NCBI GenBank assembly: GCA_963557315.1
Contig: CAUWAX010000014.1
Location: forward strand, 12,648 to 76,647
Source: an uncultured Gemmiger sp.
GTDB taxonomy: Bacteria; Bacillota; Clostridia; Oscillospirales; Ruminococcaceae
DNA: 64,000 bases
Reading direction: 5' to 3'
In this document: piece by piece, positions 1,564-57,417 of the stretch
How the letters are laid out: each line of letters begins with the position of its first letter
Numbering within the stretch: position 1 is the first letter of the stretch
The notes under the pieces: model-generated
Told to the model about the DNA's origin: nothing
What the model saw: the letters and a program-made list of their open reading frames with translations, nothing else
Databases searched by the model: none
Position numbers and translations under genes: made by a program

Positions 1564-1596
1564 AAAAACGGACGGGAATCTTCCCGTCCGTTTTTC
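1564..1596. terminator. Bidirectional intrinsic terminator downstream of acyP
   Basis: AAAAACGGACGGGAA-TC-TTCCCGTCCGTTTTT: 11-bp GC-rich stem flanked by an A-tract and a T-tract. Confidence 0.8.
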
Positions 1597-1599
1597 TTT

Positions 1600-1633
1600 G
1601 GAGTTTCTGCTTCCTTCTTTGCAAAGAAGGAAC
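1600..1633 (-). repeat. Intergenic hairpin repeat (IHR), copy 1, stem type A
   Basis: GGAGTTTCTGC-TTCCTTCTTTGCAAAGAAGGAA-C. It lies between the acyP stop (1649) and the terminator at 1564-1596. Confidence 0.9.
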
Positions 1634-1648
1634 AAACCGTTCCCCACT

Positions 1649-8025: not shown

Positions 8026-8062
8026 CTTTCCGGCCGATGTTCCCTCTTTGGGAGATCAGATC

Positions 8063-8096
8063 GGAATTTCTGCTTCCTTCTTTGCAAAGAAGGAAC
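8063..8096 (-). repeat. IHR copy 2, stem type A
   Basis: GGAATTTCTGC-TTCCTTCTTTGCAAAGAAGGAA-C, located 65 nt after the stop of the 8161..8742 gene. Confidence 0.9.
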
Positions 8097-8160
8097 AAAA
8101 ACAAGAGCCTTTTGCTGTACATCCTGCACAGCAAAGGCTCTTGTTCTTTATATAGATCGT

Positions 8161-9095: not shown

Positions 9096-9197
9096 CTTTG
9101 TTATAAAAACGCATTGCAAAGAAGTCCCTCCCCGCAGAATGGACACACCGGGCGGCGGGGGTTTTCCCTTACCATCCCATTCCCGGGCTATAAAATT

Positions 9198-9230
9198 GGA
9201 ATTTCTTCGGTTCCTTCTTTGCAAAGAAGG
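9198..9230 (-). repeat. IHR copy 3, type A (right stem truncated)
   Basis: GGAATTTCTTCGGTTCCTTCTTTGCAAAGAAGG. Confidence 0.85.
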
Positions 9231-9301
9231 TGGTTCCCGCAGGATAAACACACCGGGCGGCACGGTCTTGCCTCAACTACCCATTCCCGGGCTATAAAAT
9301 T

Positions 9302-9337
9302 GGAATTTCTTCGGTTCCTTCTTTGTAAAGAAGGAAC
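9302..9337 (-). repeat. IHR copy 4, type A (TGTAAA centre)
   Basis: GGAATTTCTTCG-GTTCCTTCTTTGTAAAGAAGGAAC. Confidence 0.9.
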
Positions 9338-9372
9338 AAAAAGGGGGCGGTCCCGGGGGACCGTCCCTTTTT
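9338..9372 (-). terminator. Intrinsic terminator of the amt-PII gene
   Basis: 10-bp GC stem (GGGGCGGTCC/GGACCGTCCC) with flanking A- and T-tracts, 9 nt after the stop at 9381. Confidence 0.75.
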
Positions 9373-13292: not shown

Positions 13293-13482
13293 GTTGACAC
13301 TCGTTCAATTTTACAAAATGTTCATATCAGTATCATAGTTTCTTAGCAGTTATCCTGTATTGTATTAGGCACAGGGAACCGGAGCCGCAACCGGAACCCT
13401 GGAACATGATTCCTCCTCACACCAAACCGATACCCCAAAATGCCCCCGCCCGGAGCCGCAACCGGACGGGGGCAATGCTTTT

Positions 13483-13517
13483 GTTCCTTCTTTGCAAAGA
13501 AGGAACCGAAGAAACTC
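13483..13517 (+). repeat. IHR copy 5, type A
   Basis: GTTCCTTCTTTGCAAAGAAGGAAC-CGAAGAAACTC. Confidence 0.9.
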
Positions 13518-14555: not shown

Positions 14556-14631
14556 GGTCCCCTCCTTTGGGTTTGGGTTGGTTTCGTATCTTCATTAAAA
14601 CCAATTCCCTGTACTTTGTCAATATCTCCTT

Positions 14632-14667
14632 GTTCCTTCTTTGCAAAGAAGGAACCGAAGAAATTTC
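14632..14667 (+). repeat. IHR copy 6, type A
   Basis: GTTCCTTCTTTGCAAAGAAGGAAC-CGAAGAAATTTC. Confidence 0.9.
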
Positions 14668-22194: not shown

Positions 22195-23297
22195 TGCGCC
22201 TGACCCATCTGGAGCTGACCGACCACCGCAACCTGGCCCATGCTGTGCTGGACCCCGACCCCCACCTGACGGTGCTGTGCGGGCCTAACGGACAGGGCAA
22301 GACCAATTTGCTGGAAGCGGTGTGGCTGCTCACCGGGGGCAAGAGCTTCCGGGGTGCCAAGGACGCCGAACTGATCCGCCGCGGGTGCGAGTTTTCGGTG
22401 ATCGAAGGCGCGCTGGAAAGCGACGGCACCGAAAAGACCATCCGTCTGACGGTGGGGGCCAAGGGCAGTCAACGCCCCGGCCGCACCGCCAAGCTCAACG
22501 GGGTGGACCAAGGCCGAGCCGCGGCATTGGCGGGCAACTTTCAGGCCGTGGTGTTCGAGCCGGACCTTCTCTCGCTGGTCAAGGGCGGGCCGGAAGGCCG
22601 GCGCCGGTTTTTGGACGCGGCGCTGTGTCAGGTATTCCGGCCCTATCTGGTGGCGCTGCGCCGGTATATGCGGCTGGTGGCCCAGAAAAACGCCCTGCTG
22701 AAAAGTTATGACATCACCCCCAACGGGGCGCTGCTGCTGGACGCTTACAACGAACAGTTGGCCCAGTACGGCGGGCAGATCATGGCCCACCGGCAGCGTT
22801 TTGTGGAGGCATTGGCCCCGGTAGCGGCCCAAAACTATGCGGAAATTTCGCATGGTGCCGAGGTTTTTTCGCTGCGGTACCAATGCTGTGCCGCCCAGCC
22901 CACCGCCGAAGCGCTGGCCGAAAAGCTGGCGTCGGTGCGGGGCAGTGAACTGCGGATGGGCTTTTGCATGGTCGGTCCCCACCGGGAAGATCTGGACTTG
23001 CAGTTGGACGGCCAGCCCGCCAGGATCTATGGCAGCCAAGGCCAGCAGCGGAGCTGTGTGTTGGCCATGAAATTGGCGGAAGCCACGGTGGTAGGCGACT
23101 TTTTCGGGGAACACCCGGTGCTGTTGCTGGACGACGTGCTCAGCGAATTGGACGACGAGCGGCAGACCTACCTGCTGACCCGGATGGGCGAGCACCAGAC
23201 CATCGTGACGACCTGTGACACCGCCGCCTTTGCCCGGACCAACGGCAAGATCATCTATGTGAAGGCGGGACAGGCGTCGGAAAGTCCCATCGATTAG
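22194..23297 (+). CDS. recF: DNA replication and repair protein RecF
   Basis: 367 aa from ATG 22194 (overlaps the yaaA stop as TGATG). Walker A GPNGQGKTNLLEA, signature GSQGQQRS, Walker B LLLDDVLSELD. Confidence 0.93.
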   Translation: MRLTHLELTDHRNLAHAVLDPDPHLTVLCGPNGQGKTNLLEAVWLLTGGKSFRGAKDAELIRRGCEFSVIEGALESDGTEKTIRLTVGAKGSQRPGRTAKLNGVDQGRAAALAGNFQAVVFEPDLLSLVKGGPEGRRRFLDAALCQVFRPYLVALRRYMRLVAQKNALLKSYDITPNGALLLDAYNEQLAQYGGQIMAHRQRFVEALAPVAAQNYAEISHGAEVFSLRYQCCAAQPTAEALAEKLASVRGSELRMGFCMVGPHREDLDLQLDGQPARIYGSQGQQRSCVLAMKLAEATVVGDFFGEHPVLLLDDVLSELDDERQTYLLTRMGEHQTIVTTCDTAAFARTNGKIIYVKAGQASESPID

Positions 23298-23331
23298 AGT
23301 TTCTTTGCTTCTTTCTTTGCAAAGAAAGAAG
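23297..23331 (-). repeat. IHR copy 12, variant stem
   Basis: GAGTTTCTTTG-CTTCTTTCTTTGCAAAGAAAGAAG starts within the recF stop codon. Its right arm runs into the remB Shine-Dalgarno sequence (GAAGGAG). Confidence 0.8.
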
Positions 23332-23341
23332 GAGACGAACC

Positions 23342-23602: not shown

Positions 23603-25948
<2,346 letters not shown>

Positions 25949-25956
25949 CGGTTTTT

Positions 25957-25992
25957 GTTCCTTCTTTGCAAAGAAGGAACCGAAGAAACTCC
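25957..25992 (+). repeat. IHR copy 13, type A
   Basis: GTTCCTTCTTTGCAAAGAAGGAAC-CGAAGAAACTCC in the 70-nt gyrB-gyrA spacer. Confidence 0.9.
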
Positions 25993-28835: not shown

Positions 28836-28840
28836 CGTTA

Positions 28841-28875
28841 GAGTTTCTTCGGTTCCTTCTTTGCAAAGAAGGAAC
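28841..28875 (-). repeat. IHR copy 14, type A
   Basis: GAGTTTCTTCG-GTTCCTTCTTTGCAAAGAAGGAAC, between the permease stop (28889) and the terminator. Confidence 0.9.
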
Positions 28876-28888
28876 AACAGACAGACAA

Positions 28889-33003: not shown

Positions 33004-33078
33004 GGAGTTTCTTTTTGGAGTTTTTTTGGAGTTTCTTTGCCTACTTTCTTTGCAAAGAAAGTAGGCAAAGAAAGTAGG
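33004..33078 (-). repeat. IHR copy 15, type B, with a triplicated arm and duplicated right half
   Basis: GGAGTTTCTTTTT / GGAGTTTTTTT / GGAGTTTCTTTG-CCTACTTTCTTTGCAAAGAAAGTAGG-CAAAGAAAGTAGG. It abuts the TGA at 33079. Confidence 0.9.
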
Positions 33079-33564
33079 TCACTCCATGCGGCTGACCTGC
33101 CAGCCGTCGTCGGTCAGGGTCAGGCCGATCTCGCCGGTAAAGGTCACCGGGGTAATGCCTTCCGGGCTGGCCGTCACCGTATAGGTGTAGTTGGCTTGGG
33201 TGTCGGTGTTGGAATAGGCTTCCTCCAGCGCTACCGATTCCACCACCACGGCGGTATCCGGTCAGGTGGTCAGCACCCGGGTAGGCACCCGGTTGGCCGT
33301 CAGGGTACTCAGCCCTTCCTCAGTAAAGTGCGCCCCCAGCCGCTGGGTCCAGTATTCGTTCAGCGATGCCTCGTCGGTGACGCTCTCGGCCAGTGCCGTT
33401 TCAAAGGACGCGCTGTCCCCTGCCTCGCAGCTATACACCGCCTCCAAAACCGTTTGGGCGGTGGTTTCGGCGTCCGCTTCGGGCTGGGCCCCGCACCCCG
33501 CCAACAGCGCCGCTGCCAACAGCCCTGCCGCTGCCACACCGCGGAACAAACCCTGCTTTTTCAT
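33079..33564 (-). pseudogene. Lipoprotein gene interrupted by one in-frame TGA (33262-33264)
   Basis: ORF 33262..33564 has a signal peptide and lipobox (LLAGC). The same frame continues for 60 more sense codons with typical GC3-rich codon usage (PDTAVVVESV...GWQVSRME) to the TGA at 33079, where an IHR begins, as at other gene ends. Confidence 0.6.
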
Positions 33565-39507: not shown

Positions 39508-39511
39508 GTTT

Positions 39512-39547
39512 GGAGTTTCTTCGGTTCCTTCTTTGCAAAGAAGGAAC
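39512..39547 (-). repeat. IHR copy 17, type A
   Basis: GGAGTTTCTTCG-GTTCCTTCTTTGCAAAGAAGGAAC, between the uppP stop (39561) and the terminator. Confidence 0.9.
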
Positions 39548-39560
39548 AAAAGCCCGGCGC

Positions 39561-41271: not shown

Positions 41272-41320
41272 GGTTTGGGCGGTGAACCCCCGTGACCGGG
41301 AATTTTTGGGCGTCTTGTTT

Positions 41321-41358
41321 AGAATTTCTTTGCCTACTTTCTTTGCAAAGAAAGTAGG
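41321..41358 (-). repeat. IHR copy 18, type B
   Basis: AGAATTTCTTTG-CCTACTTTCTTTGCAAAGAAAGTAGG. Confidence 0.9.
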
Positions 41359-42598: not shown

Positions 42599-42612
42599 CG
42601 GGGTATACTATT

Positions 42613-42659
42613 GGAATTTCTTCGGTTCCTTCTTTGTAAAGAAGGAACAAAGAAGGAAC
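42613..42659 (-). repeat. IHR copy 19, type A with a duplicated right half
   Basis: GGAATTTCTTCG-GTTCCTTCTTTGTAAAGAAGGAAC-AAAGAAGGAAC. Confidence 0.9.
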
Positions 42660-43670: not shown

Positions 43671-43702
43671 AAAAAGGCATGGTCTTAGGACCATGCCTTT
43701 TT
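43671..43702. terminator. Bidirectional intrinsic terminator shared by convergent genes
   Basis: AAAAAGGCATGGTC-TTAG-GACCATGCCTTTTT. Confidence 0.85.
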
Positions 43703-43706
43703 CTAT

Positions 43707-43744
43707 AGAGTTTCTTTGCCTACTTTCTTTGCAAAGAAAGTAGG
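43707..43744 (-). repeat. IHR copy 21, type B
   Basis: AGAGTTTCTTTG-CCTACTTTCTTTGCAAAGAAAGTAGG. Confidence 0.9.
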
Positions 43745-43761
43745 GCTTTATCAAGGAACCA

Positions 43762-50215: not shown

Positions 50216-50244
50216 TTGGCAACCGGCCCGATTTGTGATATACT
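50216..50244 (+). promoter_or_regulatory. Promoter of tRNA(CAU)
   Basis: TTGGCA-17 nt-TATACT with a TGn extended -10. The tRNA starts about 19 nt downstream. Confidence 0.65.
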
Positions 50245-50262: not shown

Positions 50263-50339
50263 GGGCCATTAGCTCAGTTGGTCAGAGCTGGCGGCTCATA
50301 ACCGCTTGGTCCCGGGTTCAAGTCCTGGATGGCCCACCA
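50263..50339 (+). tRNA. tRNA with CAU anticodon (Ile2-lysidine-like or elongator Met), CCA encoded
   Basis: Hand-folded cloverleaf: GGGCCAT / GCTC-AGTTGGTCA-GAGC / GGCGG-CTCATAA-CCGCT / CCGGG-TTCAAGT-CCTGG / ATGGCCC-A-CCA. Confidence 0.88.
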
Positions 50340-50633
50340 ATAAAAGAGCGTCCCCAAACAGGGGACGTTTTTTTATTCAAAAGGCCATTCAGGACTTGAA
50401 CAGCCCGTAGCCAAACAGTCCTGCGGACTGTTTGGCAGGGCGCGGGTCAGCAGAGGATGGCCCACCAATAAAAGAGCGTCCCCAAACAGGGGACGTTTTT
50501 TTATTCAAAAGGCCATTCAGGACTTGAACAGCCCGTAGCCAAACAGTCCTGCGGACTGTTTGGCAGGGCGCGGGTCAGCAGAGGATGGCCCACCAATAAA
50601 AGAGCGTCCCCAAACAGGGGACGTTTTTTTATT
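50327..50633 (+). repeat. 128-bp tandem repeat (2 identical copies plus a partial third), seeded by the tRNA 3' end and its terminator
   Basis: GGATGGCCCACCAATAAAAGAGCGTCCCCAAACAGGGGACGTTTTTTTATT... starts at 50327, 50455 and 50583. Copies 1 and 2 are identical over 128 nt. Confidence 0.9.
50349..50374 (+). terminator. Intrinsic terminator of tRNA(CAU), duplicated at +128 and +256
   Basis: CGTCCCC-AAACA-GGGGACG followed by TTTTTTT. Confidence 0.85.
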
Positions 50634-50770: not shown

Positions 50771-50845
50771 ACTTGAACAGCCCGTAGGCAAACAGTCCTG
50801 CGGACTGTTTGACAGGGCGCGGGTGAACAGAGGATGGCCCACCAA
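50771..50845 (+). repeat. Displaced distal part of the third 128-bp unit
   Basis: ACTTGAACAGCCCGTAGGCAAACAGTCCTGCGGACTGTTTGACAGGGCGCGGGTGAACAGAGGATGGCCCACCAA, with a few substitutions relative to copies 1 and 2. Confidence 0.85.
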
Positions 50846-51507: not shown

Positions 51508-52623
51508 ATGAGATTGTATGGAAAACTTGCCGCCTTAAGCCTGACGGCTGCGTTGTTGCTGACAGGCTGCGGCACCACCATCACAGGGGTGACGCTGGGC
51601 CTGCCCGACCAGATGGAGCGCGGCGCCACCGGAATGGCCACCCCGGAATATGCGTACAGCGGTGCCACGCCGGAGGCGGCGAAAGTCGAGGAACTGGCGG
51701 ACAAGCTGGGCCTGAGCTATACATCCAGCGACCCGTCGGTGGTGATGGTGGATGCCGACGGCAATCTGGCGGCCTTGGCGGCAGGCACGGCGGAAGTGGC
51801 CCTGACCAGTGCGGACGGCAAGATCTCGGCCAGCGGGACCATCACGGTGGTGGTCAGCCCCACCGGGTTGACCATGCCCGAAACGCTGACCTTCACGGTG
51901 GGGGACGAAGCCCAGTCGGCAGCGGCCACCGTCCAGCCCGAGGATGCCACCGACCAGAACGTTACCTACACCTCCTCCGATGAAGCGGTGGCCACGGTAG
52001 ATGCCGCAGGCAGCGTAACGCCGGTGGCCGCAGGGGAAGCGGTGATCACGGCGAAGCTGGGAGATTTGGAAGCGAGCTGCACGGTGACGGTGGAAGAACC
52101 GAATACCACAGCCCCCACAGAAACTACCGGGCAGGCGGAACAGACCGCCCCGGCGGCATCGGGCAGCGAGGGCGGCGAGAGCGGCGACACCGCCGACAGC
52201 GCCCAGACCCCGGCGCCGGCGGCCAGCACAGCCTACGGCGCCATTCCGTTCAGCCTTGCGGCAGGAACGCAGGAATGGTTTGGGATCGATTCTACCGATG
52301 ATGCCTATTGGGCGACGCTGGAAAACATCAATGCCTACCGGGCTGCGGCGGGGGTGCCTGCTCTGAGCGTAGACAGCAATTTGACCGCCATTGCGGGACA
52401 GCGTTGTATTGACATGGTGATTTCTGGCACGATGAGCCACGACGGGTATCAAACCCCTGAAATCATTGCACAAAACTGGAACTCCGCACAGGCTGTCGTG
52501 GATGCTTGGGCGGCAAGTCCGGGACATTATGCCGCCATGACCAGCCCCGACTACACGGTTTGTGGTATTGGGTGTGCCTTCGAGGAGGGCGGTACCACCT
52601 ACTGGTGTGTGACCTTCGGCTGA
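51508..52623 (+). CDS. Lipoprotein with Big_2 (Ig-like) repeats and a C-terminal CAP/SCP (YkwD-like) domain
   Basis: 371 aa. Lipobox LLTGC. Two SSDxxVxxVDxxGxxxxxxxGxAxxT Big_2-type repeats. CAP block NAYRAAAGVPAL...WAASPGHYAAM. Confidence 0.75.
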   Translation: MRLYGKLAALSLTAALLLTGCGTTITGVTLGLPDQMERGATGMATPEYAYSGATPEAAKVEELADKLGLSYTSSDPSVVMVDADGNLAALAAGTAEVALTSADGKISASGTITVVVSPTGLTMPETLTFTVGDEAQSAAATVQPEDATDQNVTYTSSDEAVATVDAAGSVTPVAAGEAVITAKLGDLEASCTVTVEEPNTTAPTETTGQAEQTAPAASGSEGGESGDTADSAQTPAPAASTAYGAIPFSLAAGTQEWFGIDSTDDAYWATLENINAYRAAAGVPALSVDSNLTAIAGQRCIDMVISGTMSHDGYQTPEIIAQNWNSAQAVVDAWAASPGHYAAMTSPDYTVCGIGCAFEEGGTTYWCVTFG

Positions 52624-52692: not shown

Positions 52693-52753
52693 GAACCCAG
52701 AAGAAAAAAGCAAGGCGTTTGCCCTATTTTGACGGCACGATGAGGTGAACAGC

Positions 52754-55567
52754 ATGACGGATGCACAAAGGCAGAAGGCAGCAAAAGAGTTTGCCGAGTA
52801 TTGGAAAGGCAAAGGGTATGAAAAAGGGGAAAGCCAACCCTTCTGGCTTTCTCTGCTCCGGGATGTTTATGGCGTGGAGCACCCGGAACAGTTTATTGAA
52901 TTTGAAGATCAGGTCCATCTGGACCACACCAGCTTTATTGATGGCTATATTCCTTCTACCCGTGTATTGATCGAGCAGAAGGCGTTGGACAAGGATATGA
53001 AGAAAGGCATCCGCCAGTCGGACGGTTCCTATTTGTCGCCGTTCCAGCAGGCCAAGCGGTATATTACCGAACTGCCGGTGTCCAAACATCCGCGGTGGGT
53101 GGTTACCTGCAATTTCAGTACCTTTTATGTGTATGATATGGAACGCCCTCAGGGTGAGCCGGAAGTGATTAAGCTGGAGAATCTGGAAAGCGAAGCCTAT
53201 CGGCTGCAATTTCTGGTAGATTCCGGCAATGAGCATCTGAAACGGGAGATGGAGGTATCCATCGCCGCCGGTGAGATTGTCGGGCTTTTATACGATGCTT
53301 TCCTGAAGCAGTATGCAGACCCCAGAAGCGAGCGAGCCTTAAAAAGTCTGAACAAACTGTGTGTACGGCTGGTCTTTTGTTTGTATGCCGAGGATGCCGG
53401 TATTTTCGGCCGCCACGGCATGTTCCATGATTATCTGTCGGCCTTTGATACCCGCAGTATGCGTCGCGCTTTAGTGGATCTTTTCAAGGTATTGGATACC
53501 AAAGAAGAGGATCGGGATCAATATTTAAAAGCGGATAATCCGGAACTGGCAGCTTTCCCCTATGTGAACGGCGGCCTTTTCTCGGATGAAGATATCGAGA
53601 TCCCTCCCTTTACCGATGAGATTCGGGAGCTGCTGTTGGCAAAGGCCAGTGACGATTTCAACTGGTCGGAGATTAGCCCCACCATTTTCGGTGCCGTGTT
53701 TGAGAGCACCTTGAACCCGGAGACCCGCCGCAGCGGGGGTATGCACTATACCAGCATCGAGAATATTCACAAGGTAATAGACCCTCTGTTTCTGGATGAT
53801 TTGAAAGGGGAACTGGACGAAATCTGTGCCATTGCGGTGGACCGCACCAAGATGGCCAAGCTGAAAGCCTACCAGCGCAAGCTGGCATCCCTGACTTTTC
53901 TGGACCCAGCGTGTGGTTCTGGCAACTTCCTGACGGAAACTTATCTGAGTTTGCGTCGTTTGGAAAACCGGGCCCTGTTGGAATTGTTGCACGGTCAGAT
54001 GGCAATGTATACGGCCAGCGACAGCCCGATTCAAATTTCTATTTCTCAATTTTACGGTATCGAAATCAATGACTTCGCGGTGACGGTCGCCAAGACGGCG
54101 CTCTGGATTGCCGAAAGTCAAATGATGAAGGAAACCGAGAAAATCCTGCTGGTGCCGTTGGAGTTCCTGCCTCTGAAAACCAACGCCTATATTGTGGAAG
54201 GAAATGCCCTGCAGATGGATTGGGAAGAAGTTGTGCCCAAGACCCGGCTGAACTATATCATGGGCAATCCGCCGTTTGTGGGAAAGAAAGAGCAAACTTC
54301 CAGTCAGAAAAAAGAACTTATGACTATTTACGGTAAAGGCATTTCTGGCATAGGAAATATGGATTATGTAACGGGTTGGTATATTAAAGCCGCCGAATAT
54401 ATGCAGGAAACATCTATAGTAGCAGCTTTTGTTTCGACAAACTCTGTTACCCAAGGAGAACAGCCTGGTGTATTATGGGAAAAACTTTCTCAATACAATG
54501 TACAGATTGTTTTTGCATACCGAAGTTTTGTATGGGAAAGCGAAGCTAATGAAAAAGCTCATGTTCATTGCGTTATCATTGGTTTTACTTGCTCAACAGG
54601 CGTTTTTACTAAGAAAATATATACAGGAACTCGCTATACAGAAGCTGAGTTTATAAATTCATACTTGGTTGATGCGCCAATGGTTTATATTAAAAATAGA
54701 AAAGAAGGTCCTATATGTGATGTCCCAGCAATGTGTTATGGCTCTATGCCAATAGATAACAATAATTTGATATTGAGTGCGGAAGATGTTGATGCGGCAT
54801 TGAAGGAAAATCCCAATAATGCCCAATGTATTCGAGAATATGTTGGTGGCGATGAACTATTAAACAACAAAAAACGTTGGTGCTTGTGGTTAGAGGGAGT
54901 TGACCCTTCGGTTTATATAAATTCTAAATTTATAATGAACCGAATCGAGGCAACTAAAAATTATCGTCTTTATGAATCTACTCGCCCACAAACGAATAAG
55001 GCGGCTGAAACGCCGCAGCTCTTTGGAGAAATCCGTCAACCGCAAAATGGAGCGCTGGTTATCCCTAAGGTGTCGTCAGAAGACAGACTCTATATTCCGA
55101 TTGCATACGTAAAGCCCGGAATAATCATAAATGGTAGTGCACTTATGATTCCGAATGCATCGCTCTATCATTTTGGTATTTTATCATCGAATGTGCATAA
55201 TGCATGGATGCGTATTGTGGCAGGACGTATGAAAAGTGATTATCAATATTCTTCGGGTATTGTATATAATAACTTCCCTTGGCCCAGCGTATCCGAAAAG
55301 CAAAAAGAACTTATAAAAAAGGCTGCCCAAAAAGTTTTAGAAGCAAGGGATAAGCATAAAAATGTTTCTCTTGCGGCTATGTATAAGGAAAAAAATTTTT
55401 TGCTTTTTGGTGAGCTAAAAACTGCACATGATAATTTAAATCGTGTGGTGATGGATGCTTACGGTTTTGTAAAAGGGACAGAAGCAAGAACTAGTGAAAG
55501 TGCCTGTGTAGCTGAACTGATGAAGATGTACCAGAAAAAGGTTGTCGAACTGGACGCCAACAAGTAA
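52754..55567 (+). CDS. MmeI-family type IIL restriction-modification enzyme (fused endonuclease, N6-adenine methyltransferase and TRD)
   Basis: 937 aa from ATG 52754 (GAGGTGA upstream). N-terminal D...EQK nuclease motif (FIDGYIPSTRVLIEQK). MmeI-like blocks LVFCLYAEDAGIF, AAFPYVNGGLF, DPACGSGNFL, NPPFVG, FVSTNSVTQGEQ, HCVIIGF. Confidence 0.85.
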   Translation: MTDAQRQKAAKEFAEYWKGKGYEKGESQPFWLSLLRDVYGVEHPEQFIEFEDQVHLDHTSFIDGYIPSTRVLIEQKALDKDMKKGIRQSDGSYLSPFQQAKRYITELPVSKHPRWVVTCNFSTFYVYDMERPQGEPEVIKLENLESEAYRLQFLVDSGNEHLKREMEVSIAAGEIVGLLYDAFLKQYADPRSERALKSLNKLCVRLVFCLYAEDAGIFGRHGMFHDYLSAFDTRSMRRALVDLFKVLDTKEEDRDQYLKADNPELAAFPYVNGGLFSDEDIEIPPFTDEIRELLLAKASDDFNWSEISPTIFGAVFESTLNPETRRSGGMHYTSIENIHKVIDPLFLDDLKGELDEICAIAVDRTKMAKLKAYQRKLASLTFLDPACGSGNFLTETYLSLRRLENRALLELLHGQMAMYTASDSPIQISISQFYGIEINDFAVTVAKTALWIAESQMMKETEKILLVPLEFLPLKTNAYIVEGNALQMDWEEVVPKTRLNYIMGNPPFVGKKEQTSSQKKELMTIYGKGISGIGNMDYVTGWYIKAAEYMQETSIVAAFVSTNSVTQGEQPGVLWEKLSQYNVQIVFAYRSFVWESEANEKAHVHCVIIGFTCSTGVFTKKIYTGTRYTEAEFINSYLVDAPMVYIKNRKEGPICDVPAMCYGSMPIDNNNLILSAEDVDAALKENPNNAQCIREYVGGDELLNNKKRWCLWLEGVDPSVYINSKFIMNRIEATKNYRLYESTRPQTNKAAETPQLFGEIRQPQNGALVIPKVSSEDRLYIPIAYVKPGIIINGSALMIPNASLYHFGILSSNVHNAWMRIVAGRMKSDYQYSSGIVYNNFPWPSVSEKQKELIKKAAQKVLEARDKHKNVSLAAMYKEKNFLLFGELKTAHDNLNRVVMDAYGFVKGTEARTSESACVAELMKMYQKKVVELDANK

Positions 55568-55613: not shown

Positions 55614-55640
55614 ATCTTATAGGAATAGGGCAATAGTCTG

Positions 55641-56125
55641 TGACCCCGACGGGAATCTCCCGCGGGCTAACAAACAGTCCACCGGACTGTTCGTTGCGCG
55701 CTGCGGCGCGCCGCCCTGTATCGGGCGCGGGTGCCCCGCATCGGGCGACGCCCCTTGGGGCGGGGCTGGCCCTCTGCGACCCGCGGCCCTGCGACCGCAC
55801 CCTGCATCCGCCGCAGGCGGCGGTCGCCTGCGCAGCAATTCCTCGTACGGAAACAAAAAAATCTCCTCCAGCCTGAGCTAGAGGAAATTTTTTATGACCC
55901 GTACGGGAATCTCCCGCGCTCTAAAAACGCTCCGCAGGAGCGTTTTTGCCCACCGGAGCGAACGGTGGGCAAAAGCTTTTCGATTCCCGTACGTCGGCCC
56001 AAACTGTATAGAATAAGAGCTTTTTCCATAGCCCCGACGGGAATCTCCCGCGGGCTAACGAACAGTCCACTGGACTGTTCGTTGCGCACTGCGGTGCGCC
56101 GCCCTGTTCGATTCCTCGTACGGAA
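55641..56125 (-). repeat. Three units derived from the tRNA-Glu 3' end, downstream of tRNA-Glu
   Basis: Each unit is bounded by a direct copy (TGACCCGTACGGGAATC-type at 55641, 55897 and 56031) and an inverted copy (TTCGATTCC(T)CGTACG at about 55838, 55979 and 56108) of the tRNA-Glu T-arm/acceptor end. Confidence 0.8.
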
Positions 56126-56127
56126 GC

Positions 56128-56160
56128 ACAAAAATAACCCCCAGCCTAAGCTGGGGGCTT
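56128..56160 (-). terminator. Intrinsic terminator of the tRNA-Met/tRNA-Glu operon
   Basis: On the minus strand: AAGCCCCCAGC-TTAG-GCTGGGGGTT followed by ATTTTTG. Confidence 0.8.
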
Positions 56161-56165
56161 ATTTT

Positions 56166-56240
56166 TGGTGACCCGTACGGGAATCGAACCCATGTTACAG
56201 CCGTGAAAGGGCCGTGTCTTAACCGCTTGACCAACGGGCC
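56166..56240 (-). tRNA. tRNA-Glu (UUC), CCA encoded
   Basis: The reverse complement reads GGCCCGTTGGTCAAGCGGTTAAGACACGGCCCTTTCACGGCTGTAACATGGGTTCGATTCCCGTACGGGTCACCA. Anticodon loop is CTTTCAC. Confidence 0.9.
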
Positions 56241-56247
56241 ATATGAC

Positions 56248-56325
56248 GCAGGATTTCGCTAAAACAGCAAGCAACTTACCGACCACTGCTGCAATCGGCC
56301 CCCAAGTATTTTAGCGAAAGCCTGC
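56248..56325 (-). other. Long inverted repeat in the tRNA-Met/tRNA-Glu spacer
   Basis: GCAGGATTTCGCTAAAA (56248-64) pairs with TTTTAGCGAAAGCCTGC (56309-25): 17 bp with one mismatch and a 44-nt loop. Confidence 0.6.
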
Positions 56326-56329
56326 ATTA

Positions 56330-56406
56330 TGGTAGCGGTAACTGGATTTGAACCGGTGACACTTCGGGTATGAACCGAATGCTCTAGCCAACTGAGCTAT
56401 ACCGCC
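56330..56406 (-). tRNA. Elongator tRNA-Met (CAU), CCA encoded
   Basis: The reverse complement reads GGCGGTATAGCTCAGTTGGCTAGAGCATTCGGTTCATACCCGAAGTGTCACCGGTTCAAATCCAGTTACCGCTACCA. Confidence 0.88.
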
Positions 56407-56439: not shown

Positions 56440-56468
56440 ATTATACGAATCCGGGGGCTTTCTGTCAA
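56440..56468 (-). promoter_or_regulatory. Consensus sigma-A promoter of the tRNA operon
   Basis: On the minus strand: TTGACA-17 nt-TATAAT, about 33 nt upstream of tRNA-Met. Confidence 0.75.
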
Positions 56469-57365: not shown

Positions 57366-57369
57366 CTTT

Positions 57370-57405
57370 GGAATTTCTTTGGCTCTTTCTTTGTAAAGAA
57401 AGAAC
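57370..57405 (-). repeat. IHR copy 22, variant stem
   Basis: GGAATTTCTTTG-GCTCTTTCTTTGTAAAGAAAGAAC, between the serS stop (57418) and the terminator. Confidence 0.85.
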
Positions 57406-57417
57406 AGCACCACCCAA

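What the first reader, a model, noticed from the sequence alone, without database searches (positions are those of the whole stretch)
55641..56165. A second tRNA (Glu) has the same downstream architecture, and its units share the AACAGTCC-NNNN-GGACTGTT hairpin with the tRNA(CAU) units
Downstream of tRNA-Glu (minus strand) come a terminator and then three units. Each is bounded by an inverted copy and a direct copy of the tRNA-Glu T-arm/acceptor end (CCGTACG(A)GGAATCGAAC ... GGGAGATTCCCGTCGGGG). Units 1 and 3 contain CAACGAACAGTCC-AGTG-GGACTGTTCGTT, the same core as the hairpin in the tRNA(CAU) units 5.5 kb away, even though the flanks mimic a different tRNA. Unit 1 also carries an extra, very GC-rich insert of about 115 bp. 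A common internal module with ends matched to the host tRNA argues against independent att scars. It favours one element family that copies or targets tRNA 3' ends.
Basis: partly seen in the sequence, partly recalled or inferred. Interest (0 to 1): 0.65.

Follow-up and report, generated by a model that had tools for sequence, protein, structure and literature searches.

The report
Hairpin repeat units trailing tRNA genes
Behind two tRNA genes of this gut Gemmiger bacterium sit copies of a widespread, apparently undescribed family of about 100-base folded repeat units, each carrying a conserved hairpin between an inverted and a direct copy of the end of whichever tRNA lies upstream.

Summary
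The hairpin loop is 3 nt, not 4. Unit 2 carries a variant hairpin, and a second terminator lies between units 2 and 1.

The hairpin ACAGTCC-N3-GGACTGT occurs 5 times in 64 kb (0.2 expected). All five copies, plus one variant, lie downstream of tRNA-Glu or tRNA-Met(CAU). A covariance model built without the Met units finds exactly these six units, always on the tRNA-sense strand.

The same layout recurs in more than 45 loci from many genomes, behind about 20 tRNA kinds and in several phyla: tRNA, own terminator, inverted T-arm copy, module with hairpin, direct copy of the tRNA 3' end. The arms match the local tRNA far better than other tRNAs (p 6e-13 and 1e-21). One module subtype occurs behind different tRNAs.

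Compensatory changes, a G·T over A·C excess (35:3) and a conserved NGK loop show single-strand folding on the tRNA-sense strand. Metatranscriptomes hold the units at low depth.

Best reading: a mosaic, non-autonomous repeat family that lives in tRNA trailers. It probably spreads by recombination in the tRNA T-loop and by tandem duplication, and is transcribed by read-through. The mobilising enzyme and any RNA function are unknown. No Rfam family or paper match was found.

The parts
56166..56240 (-). tRNA-Glu(UUC), with encoded CCA. It is the host tRNA of the three units. Its 3' part from the T-loop to CCA is called 'e' in this report.
   Evidence: ARAGORN; Rfam tRNA 60.3 bits
56330..56406 (-). 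tRNA-Met(CAU), first gene of the Met-Glu operon. A perfect sigma-70-type promoter lies at 56440-56468 (-).
56128..56165 (-). Terminator T1 of tRNA-Glu. It is bidirectional, with stem 56136-56159. It forms the apex of a near-continuous palindrome made of the tRNA 3' half, T1 and the arm of unit 3.
   Evidence: I2, I18; sequence
56032..56123 (-). Glu unit 3. Inverted arm 56106-56123, P2 helix, small GC hairpin, conserved hairpin 56057-56083, direct arm 56032-56045.
   Evidence: z -5.8; 82.7 bits, E 6e-15
55895..55993 (-). Glu unit 2. Perfect inverted arm 55979-55993. Two inner hairpins at 55944-55974 and 55923-55947; the second is the variant ACGCTCC-TGC-GGAGCGT. The direct arm 55895-55911 ends GGGTCATAAAAAA, like the CCA-less tRNA-Glu end of related species.
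   Evidence: I4, I11, I12, I15; z -6.8; 27.5 bits, E 1e-3
55855..55890 (-). Terminator T2, a paralogue of T1. The block 55838-55893 is 79% identical to 56111-56166.
   Evidence: D4; sequence
55640..55850 (-). Glu unit 1. Inverted arm 55838-55850, a 118-nt GC-rich insert at 55720-55837 sitting inside the T-loop complement of the arm, conserved hairpin 55669-55695, direct arm 55640-55657.
   Evidence: D2, 95% to unit 3; 75.7 bits; the insert end 55807-55843 is multi-copy in metagenomes
50263..50339 (+). tRNA-Met(CAU), host of the second array. Promoter-like site at 50216-50244.
50340..50633 (+). Met array. Two exact 128-nt repeats of terminator, inverted arm, module and a 13-nt direct arm, followed by a third copy of the terminator. 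Inverted arms lie at 50383-50401 and 50511-50529, hairpins at 50410-50436 and 50538-50564, and direct arms GGATGGCCCACCA at 50455-50467 and 50583-50595.
   Evidence: D2, D3, I9; z -5.1; 44.1 bits each
50771..50844 (+). Met unit 3, 92% identical to the array units. The inverted arm is truncated to ACTTGAAC. Hairpin at 50787-50813, direct arm at 50832-50844.
   Evidence: D1; 45.2 bits

Best explanation
The units belong to a mosaic, non-coding, non-autonomous repeat family that lives in the trailers of tRNA genes.

Anatomy (shown). Directly after the tRNA's own terminator comes an inverted copy ('a') of the tRNA T-loop, the 3' strand of the T-stem, and part of the acceptor 3' strand. Next comes a module with a short covarying helix (P2), optional extra hairpins, and a 10-11-bp hairpin topped by CC-NGK-GG. 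Usually a direct copy ('e'') of the tRNA follows, running from the T-loop to CCA, often with a second copy of the terminator. On the tRNA-sense strand each unit folds into a rod.

Spread (inferred). The block made of a new tRNA 3' end, terminator, inverted arm and module enters by recombination inside the T-loop of the tRNA gene. This pushes the old 3' end downstream, where it becomes e'. Arrays then grow and shrink by unequal recombination between the e copies. Modules are exchanged between tRNA loci. The inverted arm stays matched to the tRNA because tRNA end, terminator and arm form one long palindrome.

Expression (partly shown). The units have no promoter of their own and are transcribed at a low level by read-through of the tRNA terminator. 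The strand-specific folding signal means that RNA, or single-stranded DNA of that strand, is what selection sees.

The enzyme that moves the units and any function of the RNA are unknown.
For: - Family and anatomy: (six units, all in tRNA trailers, all sense strand). Searches show the same order in more than 45 loci behind Arg, Ser, Tyr, Leu, His, Gly, Ala, Thr, Asp, Pro, Asn, Met and Glu tRNAs. The hosts are Oscillospirales, Burkholderiales, Planctomycetota and a Bacteroidaceae-labelled MAG.
- Arms are tRNA-specific: (p 6e-13 and 1e-21).
- Fixed inner borders in the T-loop: the inverted arm ends at the complement of G53/T54, and the direct arm begins at position 55-59.
- Same module subtype behind different tRNAs: Glu, Gly; Tyr, Ser; Glu, Ser; Thr, Asp, Arg.
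- Where the arms differ, the inverted arm matches the upstream tRNA rather than its own direct copy (window units 1 and 3, L107, L037).
- Single-strand folding: P2 and the hairpin covary. There are 7 pairs with double changes, 0 of 500 shuffles reach the score, and slid controls collapse. G·T against A·C is 35:3 next to the core. The loop is NGK in one orientation in 211 of 231 copies. Sense scores far exceed antisense scores.
- Turnover: orthologous tRNA-Glu trailers in other Gemmiger species carry different modules and hairpin variants with compensatory changes.
- Strains differ by one 128-nt Met repeat, and alternative joints between units appear in a metagenome.
- Displaced old end: the direct arm of unit 2 plus T2 resembles the CCA-less tRNA-Glu end of L229 and L227.
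- No recombinase or cargo in the window or in L067.
- No promoter for the units.
- RNA evidence: a metatranscriptome contig spans unit 3, T1 and the tRNA end. The L067 unit array has depth 4-14, against 66-115 for the tRNAs and 0 for the neighbouring 640 nt.
Against: - No transposition or integration event was seen, and no empty site was recovered. Tandem duplication alone explains arrays once a first unit exists.
- How the inverted arm arises is not explained by any standard recombinase mechanism.
- A strong terminator lies between the tRNA and the units, so RNA levels are low. Contig depth in metatranscriptomes is a poor measure and DNA carry-over cannot be excluded.
- The same hairpin also occurs in non-tRNA contexts (a Ruminococcus multi-hairpin element, 5' regions in phage-like contigs). 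It may therefore be a general-purpose module rather than a tRNA-specific one.
- The exact-match search biases the sample towards one hairpin sequence.
Confidence: 0.45

Rival explanations
1. A functional small RNA made from tRNA read-through, analogous to the E. coli tyrT/rtT repeats. The stem formed by the inverted and direct arms, with its NCCA tail, mimics the acceptor/T-stem minihelix. RNase P and 3' processing enzymes would then release a stable hairpin RNA whose conserved CC-NGK-GG hairpin binds a protein. Possible roles are a sponge or decoy for tRNA-targeting factors, or a regulator. The DNA repeats would be a by-product of duplication.
For: - Covariation and G·U bias on the sense strand.
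- Conserved loop.
- CCA retained in many direct arms and followed by a terminator.
- Motifs resembling RNA tertiary elements in one subtype: CCG-UWAAG/UAGG resembles an 11-nt tetraloop receptor, and there are tandem G·A pairs (the resemblance rests on my own knowledge).
- Presence in metatranscriptomes.
- The tyrT trailer repeats give rtT RNA (10.1101/2024.07.17.603846, and my own knowledge).
Against: - Rapid turnover at orthologous loci and decay of arms in some units. This is not what a conserved RNA gene shows.
- In most units the inverted arm covers only the T-loop and T-stem, so no full acceptor-stem mimic forms.
- A terminator precedes every unit and there is no promoter.
- Rfam RtT and every other family fail to match.
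Confidence: 0.2
2. Ordinary scars of independent integrations. Phages or islands that use tRNA genes as attachment sites left attR-type copies of the tRNA 3' end. The hairpin would be a conserved arm-type site or terminator of one widespread integrative element lineage, and the interiors were later deleted.
For: - Direct copies begin in the T-loop and run to CCA, as at attL/attR of T-loop-crossing integrases (Williams 2002, from my own knowledge).
- The displaced copies can differ from the live tRNA end (L107 and the window).
- 101 viral or prophage contigs carry the hairpin.
- An integrase or serine recombinase lies next to the unit in L213 and L208.
- A low-GC MmeI restriction gene sits between the two tRNA loci.
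Against: - The inverted arm is not a feature of att scars.
- Arrays of 100-200-nt units with no cargo and no recombinase occur in plain chromosomal settings.
- One module subtype serves many tRNA kinds with matched arms.
- Strand-specific covariation and G·T bias are not expected for double-stranded att sites.
Confidence: 0.12
3. A REP/REPIN- or attC-like element that moves as folded single-stranded DNA. The rod formed by arm, module and arm reconstitutes a duplex copy of the tRNA gene segment. A trans-acting HUH (RAYT/IS200-like) or tyrosine recombinase recognises it, as for integron attC sites or CTX phage.
For: - Strand-specific hairpin signal, which G·T pairs in DNA would also give.
- Alternating head-to-head palindromes (tRNA end-terminator-arm, and arm-module-arm) like BIME arrays.
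- The genome holds another REP-like family placed after terminators.
- The integrated layout fits what one-strand exchange at the top of a folded stem would give (inference).
Against: - No RAYT, TnpA or IntI gene lies in the window or near units.
- Orientation follows the tRNA gene rather than replication direction. The two arrays in the window are convergent, so one is head-on to replication.
- Near-identical hairpins across phyla are unlike species-specific REPs.
Confidence: 0.13
4. A guide-RNA-like homing device. The module would be a scaffold and the 18-22-nt direct copy a 3' guide against the tRNA gene. G53-T54-T55 just upstream of the match would act as a PAM-like signal that the copy itself lacks, as with the homing crRNAs of type V-K CRISPR-associated transposons.
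For: - Direct copies are 18-22 nt, start right after GTT, and are followed by a terminator.
- Units lie at a roughly fixed distance, 45-120 nt, beyond the tRNA end.
Against: - No cas, tnpB, iscB or transposase genes are nearby.
- The inverted arm would sequester the guide.
- The border varies with module subtype from position 55 to 59.
- Some units lack the direct copy (L227, L229).
Confidence: 0.04

Closest known systems
E. coli tyrT trailer repeats / rtT RNA (Rfam RtT, RF00391)
   Same: Tandem repeat units sit directly downstream of a tRNA gene. Each ends with a copy of the tRNA 3' end, and they are co-transcribed with the tRNA and processed (my own knowledge; the tyrT/rttR region is mentioned in 10.1101/2024.07.17.603846).
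   Different: - There is no sequence or model match.
- The units here add an inverted arm and a conserved hairpin.
- A terminator stands before each unit.
- They occur behind about 20 tRNA kinds and in several phyla.
REP / BIME / REPIN elements mobilised by RAYT transposases
   Same: Short intergenic hairpin repeats, often just after terminators. They occur in arrays of alternating orientation, form long hairpins as single strands, and are non-autonomous (10.1101/2024.07.17.603846 summarises REPIN-RAYT).
   Different: - The arms here are copied from the neighbouring tRNA rather than being part of a fixed consensus.
- No GTAG-type 5' motif and no RAYT gene was seen.
- The hairpin core is shared across phyla.
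attL/attR duplications of tRNA 3' ends left by tRNA-targeting integrases (genomic islands, prophages)
   Same: A direct repeat of the tRNA 3' part starts in the T-loop. The live tRNA end may be a replacement and the old end is displaced downstream. Successive events give arrays (PMC9897764 describes such tRNA fragments).
   Different: The units are about 100 nt with no cargo or recombinase. They carry an inverted arm and show strand-specific structural conservation.
Integron attC sites / CTX phage folded attP
   Same: Imperfect palindromes that act as folded single strands, defined more by structure than by sequence, integrated in arrays at a fixed site.
   Different: No integron integrase or Xer link is known here. 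The polarity of the GTT/AAC triplets differs from attC R boxes. The target is a tRNA T-loop. This comparison is inference only.

Membership tests
tRNA gene / tRNA-like RNA (Rfam RF00005 clan) | Cloverleaf detected by ARAGORN or by the Rfam tRNA model | tested here: not met
   Only the three true tRNAs are called, and no unit is.
RtT RNA (tyrT trailer repeats) | Match to Rfam RF00391 | tested here: not met
   No hit even at E up to 10.
RtT RNA (tyrT trailer repeats) | Repeat units downstream of a tRNA, each ending in a copy of the tRNA 3' end | tested here: met
Integrase att scars at tRNA genes | Direct repeat of the tRNA 3' segment with its border in the T-loop, anticodon loop or acceptor end | tested here: met
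   Direct arms start at tRNA position 55-59 and run to CCA.
Integrase att scars at tRNA genes | Recombinase gene and cargo between the repeats, or remnants of them | tested here: not met
   The window and L067 have none. No recurrent neighbouring family appears in 120 loci. A recombinase lies next to the unit in only some viral contigs.
REP/REPIN-RAYT | Multi-copy intergenic imperfect palindromes forming hairpin doublets | tested here: inconclusive
   The units are hairpin-rich and multi-copy, but the arms are locus-specific.
REP/REPIN-RAYT | Cognate RAYT (Y1 HUH) gene in the genome, usually flanked by REPs | not testable with these tools
   Only 64 kb of the genome is available. No such gene appears among the called genes with Pfam hits.
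Integron attC | Adjacent IntI integrase and attI; R''/R' boxes RYYYAAC...GTTRRRY | tested here: not met
   No integrase. The T-loop-derived GTTCRA/TYGAAC ends deviate from the consensus and have opposite polarity (sequences).
CRISPR-associated transposon homing guide (type V-K) | cas12k, tnsB, tnsC and tniQ genes with a delocalised crRNA | tested here: not met
   No such genes in the window or in sampled loci.
IS200/IS605 PATE or TnpB omega-RNA | TnpA/TnpB gene, or a match to the Rfam IS605-orfB or HEARO families | tested here: not met

The most novel reading that the evidence does not exclude
The units are the integrated form of a tiny self-complementary mobile element of about 130 nt (a rod or dumbbell). 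It would home to tRNA genes by presenting a folded copy of the tRNA T-arm and acceptor duplex to a T-loop-specific recombinase, and it would bring its own replacement tRNA 3' end and terminator. That would be an integron-cassette-like system whose attachment site is any tRNA gene. The conserved CC-NGK-GG hairpin would be the handle recognised by a trans-acting enzyme shared across phyla.
Probability: 0.12. Interest if true: 0.85.

Novelty: new variant of a known kind. Interest (0 to 1): 0.62.

Why it matters
tRNA gene ends are the main landing sites for mobile DNA in bacteria, and tRNA trailers are usually treated as junk or scars. This family is a structured module with a conserved hairpin and arms copied from whichever tRNA it follows. 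It occurs in gut Clostridia, Burkholderiales, Planctomycetota and phage-like contigs.

If it is mobile, it would be among the smallest site-specific elements known, and it would show how tRNA 3' ends get replaced. If the RNA is functional, it would be a widespread tRNA-linked small RNA class missing from Rfam.

In practice, these units create false tRNA fragments, repeat-induced assembly breaks and strain-level length variation next to tRNA genes.

Tried and rejected
- Rfam at gathering and at permissive thresholds on the window and on 18 foreign loci gave only tRNAs and noise.
- Clustering ORFs within 4 kb of 129 hairpins to find a partner protein gave only housekeeping families: ABC transporters, kinases, GyrB, PurH.
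- Distant direct copies that would bracket a larger element were absent in 8 loci.
- Empty-site search through SerRS orthologues: two related species have the same operon but also carry units, and two lack the tRNAs there. No empty site was obtained.
- Literature searches by phrase and by sequence found no description. PMC9897764 treats only classical tRNA fragments.
- A snap-back origin at the T-arm was rejected because the direct arms keep the true T-loop 3' bases, for example AAGTCC and GAATCC.
- A fully continuous terminator-centred palindrome from simple template switching is not observed. A 4-10-nt bubble at the acceptor end and CCA is always present.
- The idea that the loop mimics an anticodon, the resemblance to CsrA sites, and the nearby MmeI recognition site were considered and dropped as unsupported.
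- My quick scan for inverted arms without modules was too crude to use.

Full report
**What is there**

The window comes from a Gemmiger species. Its SerRS is 93% identical to a Gemmiger sp. protein. The region lies near the trmE-gidA-gidB-noc-soj-spo0J-serS cluster.

ARAGORN and Rfam find three tRNAs:
- tRNA-Met(CAU) at 50263-50339 (+).
- An operon of tRNA-Met at 56330-56406 (-) and tRNA-Glu(UUC) at 56166-56240 (-). A perfect promoter drives it at 56440-56468.

Read on the tRNA strand, tRNA-Glu is followed by:
- A bidirectional terminator, T1.
- Unit 3 (56032-56123).
- A short spacer.
- Unit 2 (55895-55993).
- A second terminator, T2, 79% identical to T1 over the 56-nt block that also includes the adjoining arm.
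- Unit 1 (55640-55850).

Units 1 and 3 are 95% identical over 76 nt. Unit 1 has a 118-nt GC-rich insert placed exactly inside the T-loop complement of its inverted arm. Unit 2 has perfect arms but a different interior that includes a variant hairpin, ACGCTCC-TGC-GGAGCGT.

The tRNA-Met(CAU) gene is followed by two exact 128-nt repeats of terminator, inverted arm, module and 13-nt direct arm. A third terminator copy comes next, and a third, 92%-identical unit lies 140 nt further on.

**Is it more than chance?**

With N3 it occurs 5 times against 0.2 expected; with N4 it occurs 0 times.
- Hairpins topped by TCC-N3-GGA with at least four further pairs number 6 in the window against 0.13 in shuffles. 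All six lie in the two trailers.
- Each unit folds as a long rod on the tRNA-sense strand, z -5 to -7.
- I built a covariance model from 13 units: the two Glu-type window units plus foreign ones, with no Met unit. It finds exactly the six window units on the sense strand. The Met units score E 3e-7 to 5e-7 and unit 2 scores E 1e-3. Antisense scores are far lower.

The Glu and Met units are therefore one structural family.

**The family elsewhere**

A scan of viral contigs gave 101 more.

Of 129 genome hairpins, 40 lie within 600 nt of a tRNA. Nearly all of those are downstream, at 70-120 nt. For comparison, a random intergenic site has well under a 1% chance of lying there (my own estimate).

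In these loci the order is constant: tRNA, own terminator, inverted arm, module with hairpin, direct arm, and often a second terminator copy. The tRNAs include Arg, Ser, Tyr, Leu, His, Gly, Ala, Thr, Asp, Pro, Asn, Met and Glu. The hosts are mostly Oscillospirales, but also Burkholderiales, Planctomycetota and a Bacteroidaceae-labelled MAG.

The inner borders are fixed. The inverted arm always ends at the complement of G53/T54 (...TCGAAC). The direct arm begins at position 55-59 and runs to CCA, 18-22 nt in all.

Over 47 dereplicated units the arms match the cognate tRNA far better than other tRNAs or shuffles. The inverted arm scores 11.0, 7.0 and 5.2 (p 6e-13). The direct arm scores 14.7, 6.6 and 5.8 (p 1e-21).

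The same module subtype occurs behind different tRNAs, with arms matched each time. The subtype found in the window's Glu units also follows a tRNA-Gly.

There is one qualification: the hairpin also occurs in other recurrent settings. These include a roughly 200-nt multi-hairpin element in Ruminococcus, the 5' region of a gene in phage- or ICE-like contigs, and 159-nt tandem arrays in viral contigs.

**Single-strand structure**

- The loop is not random. In one orientation it reads NGK, with GGT, AGT, GGG, TGT, TGC and GGC making up 211 of 231 copies. That orientation is the tRNA-sense one.
- In that orientation both flanks are purine-rich and T-poor.
- The stem extends to 10 bp. Non-Watson-Crick pairs at the next three positions are G·T 35 times and A·C 3 times.
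- Helix P2 and the hairpin covary. Seven pairs show double changes and 97% of cells are paired. No shuffle out of 500 reaches the observed covariation, and sliding one strand drops pairing below 50%.
- Orthologous units in L227 and L147 are about 95% alike in their flanks, yet differ at three hairpin pairs, all compensated.

So the sense strand folds as RNA or as single-stranded DNA, and selection sees that fold.

**Expression**

The units have no promoter of their own. Gut metatranscriptome assemblies cover the window's units only weakly, but one contig spans unit 3, T1 and the tRNA-Glu end.

Rumen metatranscriptomes cover the Ser-tRNA unit array of Ruminococcus sp. JE7B6 at depth 4-14. The tRNAs reach 66-115, and the next 640 nt have depth 0. 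This suggests low-level read-through transcription. Contig depth and possible DNA carry-over limit the inference.

**Dynamics**

- Strains with an identical SerRS carry identical Glu units but one fewer Met repeat. Assembly collapse cannot be excluded.
- A cat-gut metagenome holds alternative joints between units.
- Two other Gemmiger species have the same serS/tRNA-Met/tRNA-Glu layout, with different modules and different numbers of units behind tRNA-Glu.
- In those species tRNA-Glu lacks an encoded CCA (GGGTCATAA, GGGTCATGA). In the window the live gene ends GGGTCACCA, while the direct arm of unit 2 reads GGGTCATAAAAAA followed by T2. This looks like the old 3' end displaced downstream, although two point changes after a duplication would give the same picture.
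- Where arms differ, the inverted arm matches the tRNA upstream of the terminator rather than its own direct copy (window units 1 and 3, L107, L037).
- tRNA end, terminator and inverted arm form one near-continuous palindrome of about 100 nt, with a 4-10-nt bubble at the acceptor end and CCA.

**Mechanism**

No recombinase, transposase or cargo lies in the window or in plain chromosomal arrays such as L067. No neighbouring protein family recurs. Some viral contigs have an integrase or serine recombinase beside the unit, which is expected near tRNAs in any case.

My preferred reading (confidence 0.45) is a non-autonomous, mosaic repeat family that lives in tRNA trailers:
- It enters by recombination in the T-loop and brings a replacement tRNA end plus terminator.
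- It expands by unequal recombination between direct copies.
- It is transcribed by read-through and selected to fold on the sense strand.

The anatomy, the tRNA specificity of the arms, the strand-specific structure and the turnover are shown. The entry route, the origin of the inverted arm and any RNA function are inferred.

Rivals:
- An rtT-like processed small RNA (0.2).
- Classical att scars (0.12).
- A REPIN- or attC-like single-stranded DNA element (0.13).
- A guide-RNA-like homing device (0.04).

**Comparison and novelty**

The nearest known things are:
- The E. coli tyrT trailer repeats (rtT).
- REP/BIME/REPIN elements.
- attL/attR duplications of tRNA ends.
- Folded attC or CTX attachment sites.

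None has the combination seen here: a hairpin shared across phyla, covarying helices, and an inverted plus a direct arm copied from the local tRNA. Rfam has no family for it. Five literature searches found no description.

I rate it a new variant of a known kind (tRNA-trailer or REP-like repeats), with interest 0.62. A more radical reading, a tiny self-complementary element that homes to tRNA T-loops, is not excluded (probability 0.12).

Noticed in passing
window 1596-1634, 8059-8097, 9196-9234, 9300-9338, 13469-13507, 14618-14656, 23294-23332, 25943-25981, 28838-28876, 33022-33083, 39510-39548, 41320-41358, 42611-42649, 43701-43749, 57368-57406: A second, unrelated hairpin-repeat family with about 14 copies in 64 kb: TTGGAATTTCTTCGG-TTCCTTCTTTGCAAAGAAGGAA, plus a variant CCTACTTTCTTTGCAAAGAAAGTAGG. 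It usually sits right after the terminator of a protein gene, in both orientations, and looks REP-like.
   Followed up: no
window 55720-55837: The GC-rich 118-nt insert in Glu unit 1 sits exactly inside the T-loop complement of the inverted arm. Its end (55807-55843) has 10-100 times higher contig depth in metagenomes, so it is itself a multi-copy element.
   Followed up: partly
window 56241-56329: The spacer between tRNA-Met and tRNA-Glu is a long hairpin (22-nt arms, 86% complementary). Between strains with an identical SerRS it differs by many clustered substitutions while the units are identical. In metagenomes it is replaced by unrelated spacers.
   Followed up: partly
window 52745-55567: A low-GC MmeI-family restriction-modification gene (Pfam MmeI_N/hel/Mtase/TRD/C) and a Big_2/CAP secreted protein (51508-52623) lie between the two convergent tRNA loci. 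The whole 50.3-56.2 kb stretch looks like an island bracketed by unit arrays.
   Followed up: partly
window 50327-50633 versus L121-L125: Metagenome assemblies of the same species carry one fewer 128-nt Met repeat. This is either copy-number variation or assembly collapse.
   Followed up: partly
L016, L017, L024, L038, L040, L093, L097, L098, L104, L116 (for example L038 1085-1300): In Ruminococcus the same hairpin is one of about six consecutive perfect hairpins in a conserved element of roughly 200 nt that is not next to a tRNA. It folds with z -8 and has no Rfam match.
   Followed up: partly
L138 10700-11180; also L150, L188, L199: Viral contigs hold tandem arrays of the hairpin with a 159-nt period. 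Each repeat carries the complement of a complete T-arm-like hairpin (GCAAG-TTCAATT-CTTGC), but no tRNA is called.
   Followed up: partly
L128 9300-9400 and about 12 similar viral contigs: In a phage- or ICE-like element carrying a ParB-like methylase and a small terminase subunit, the same hairpin lies in the 5' untranslated region. It sits about 30 nt upstream of a second hairpin and the ribosome-binding site of a 216-aa gene.
   Followed up: no
L222 530-560, L156 10700-10760, L227 5340-5500, L049 about 2440: Units in other loci carry hairpins with different stems but the same CC-RGT-GG top: ACATGCC-AGT-GGCATGT, GTCTCC-GGT-GGAGAC, GAGCCC-AGT-GGGCTC, GTCTGCC-AGT-GGCAGAC. The constant part is therefore the apex rather than the stem sequence.
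   Followed up: partly
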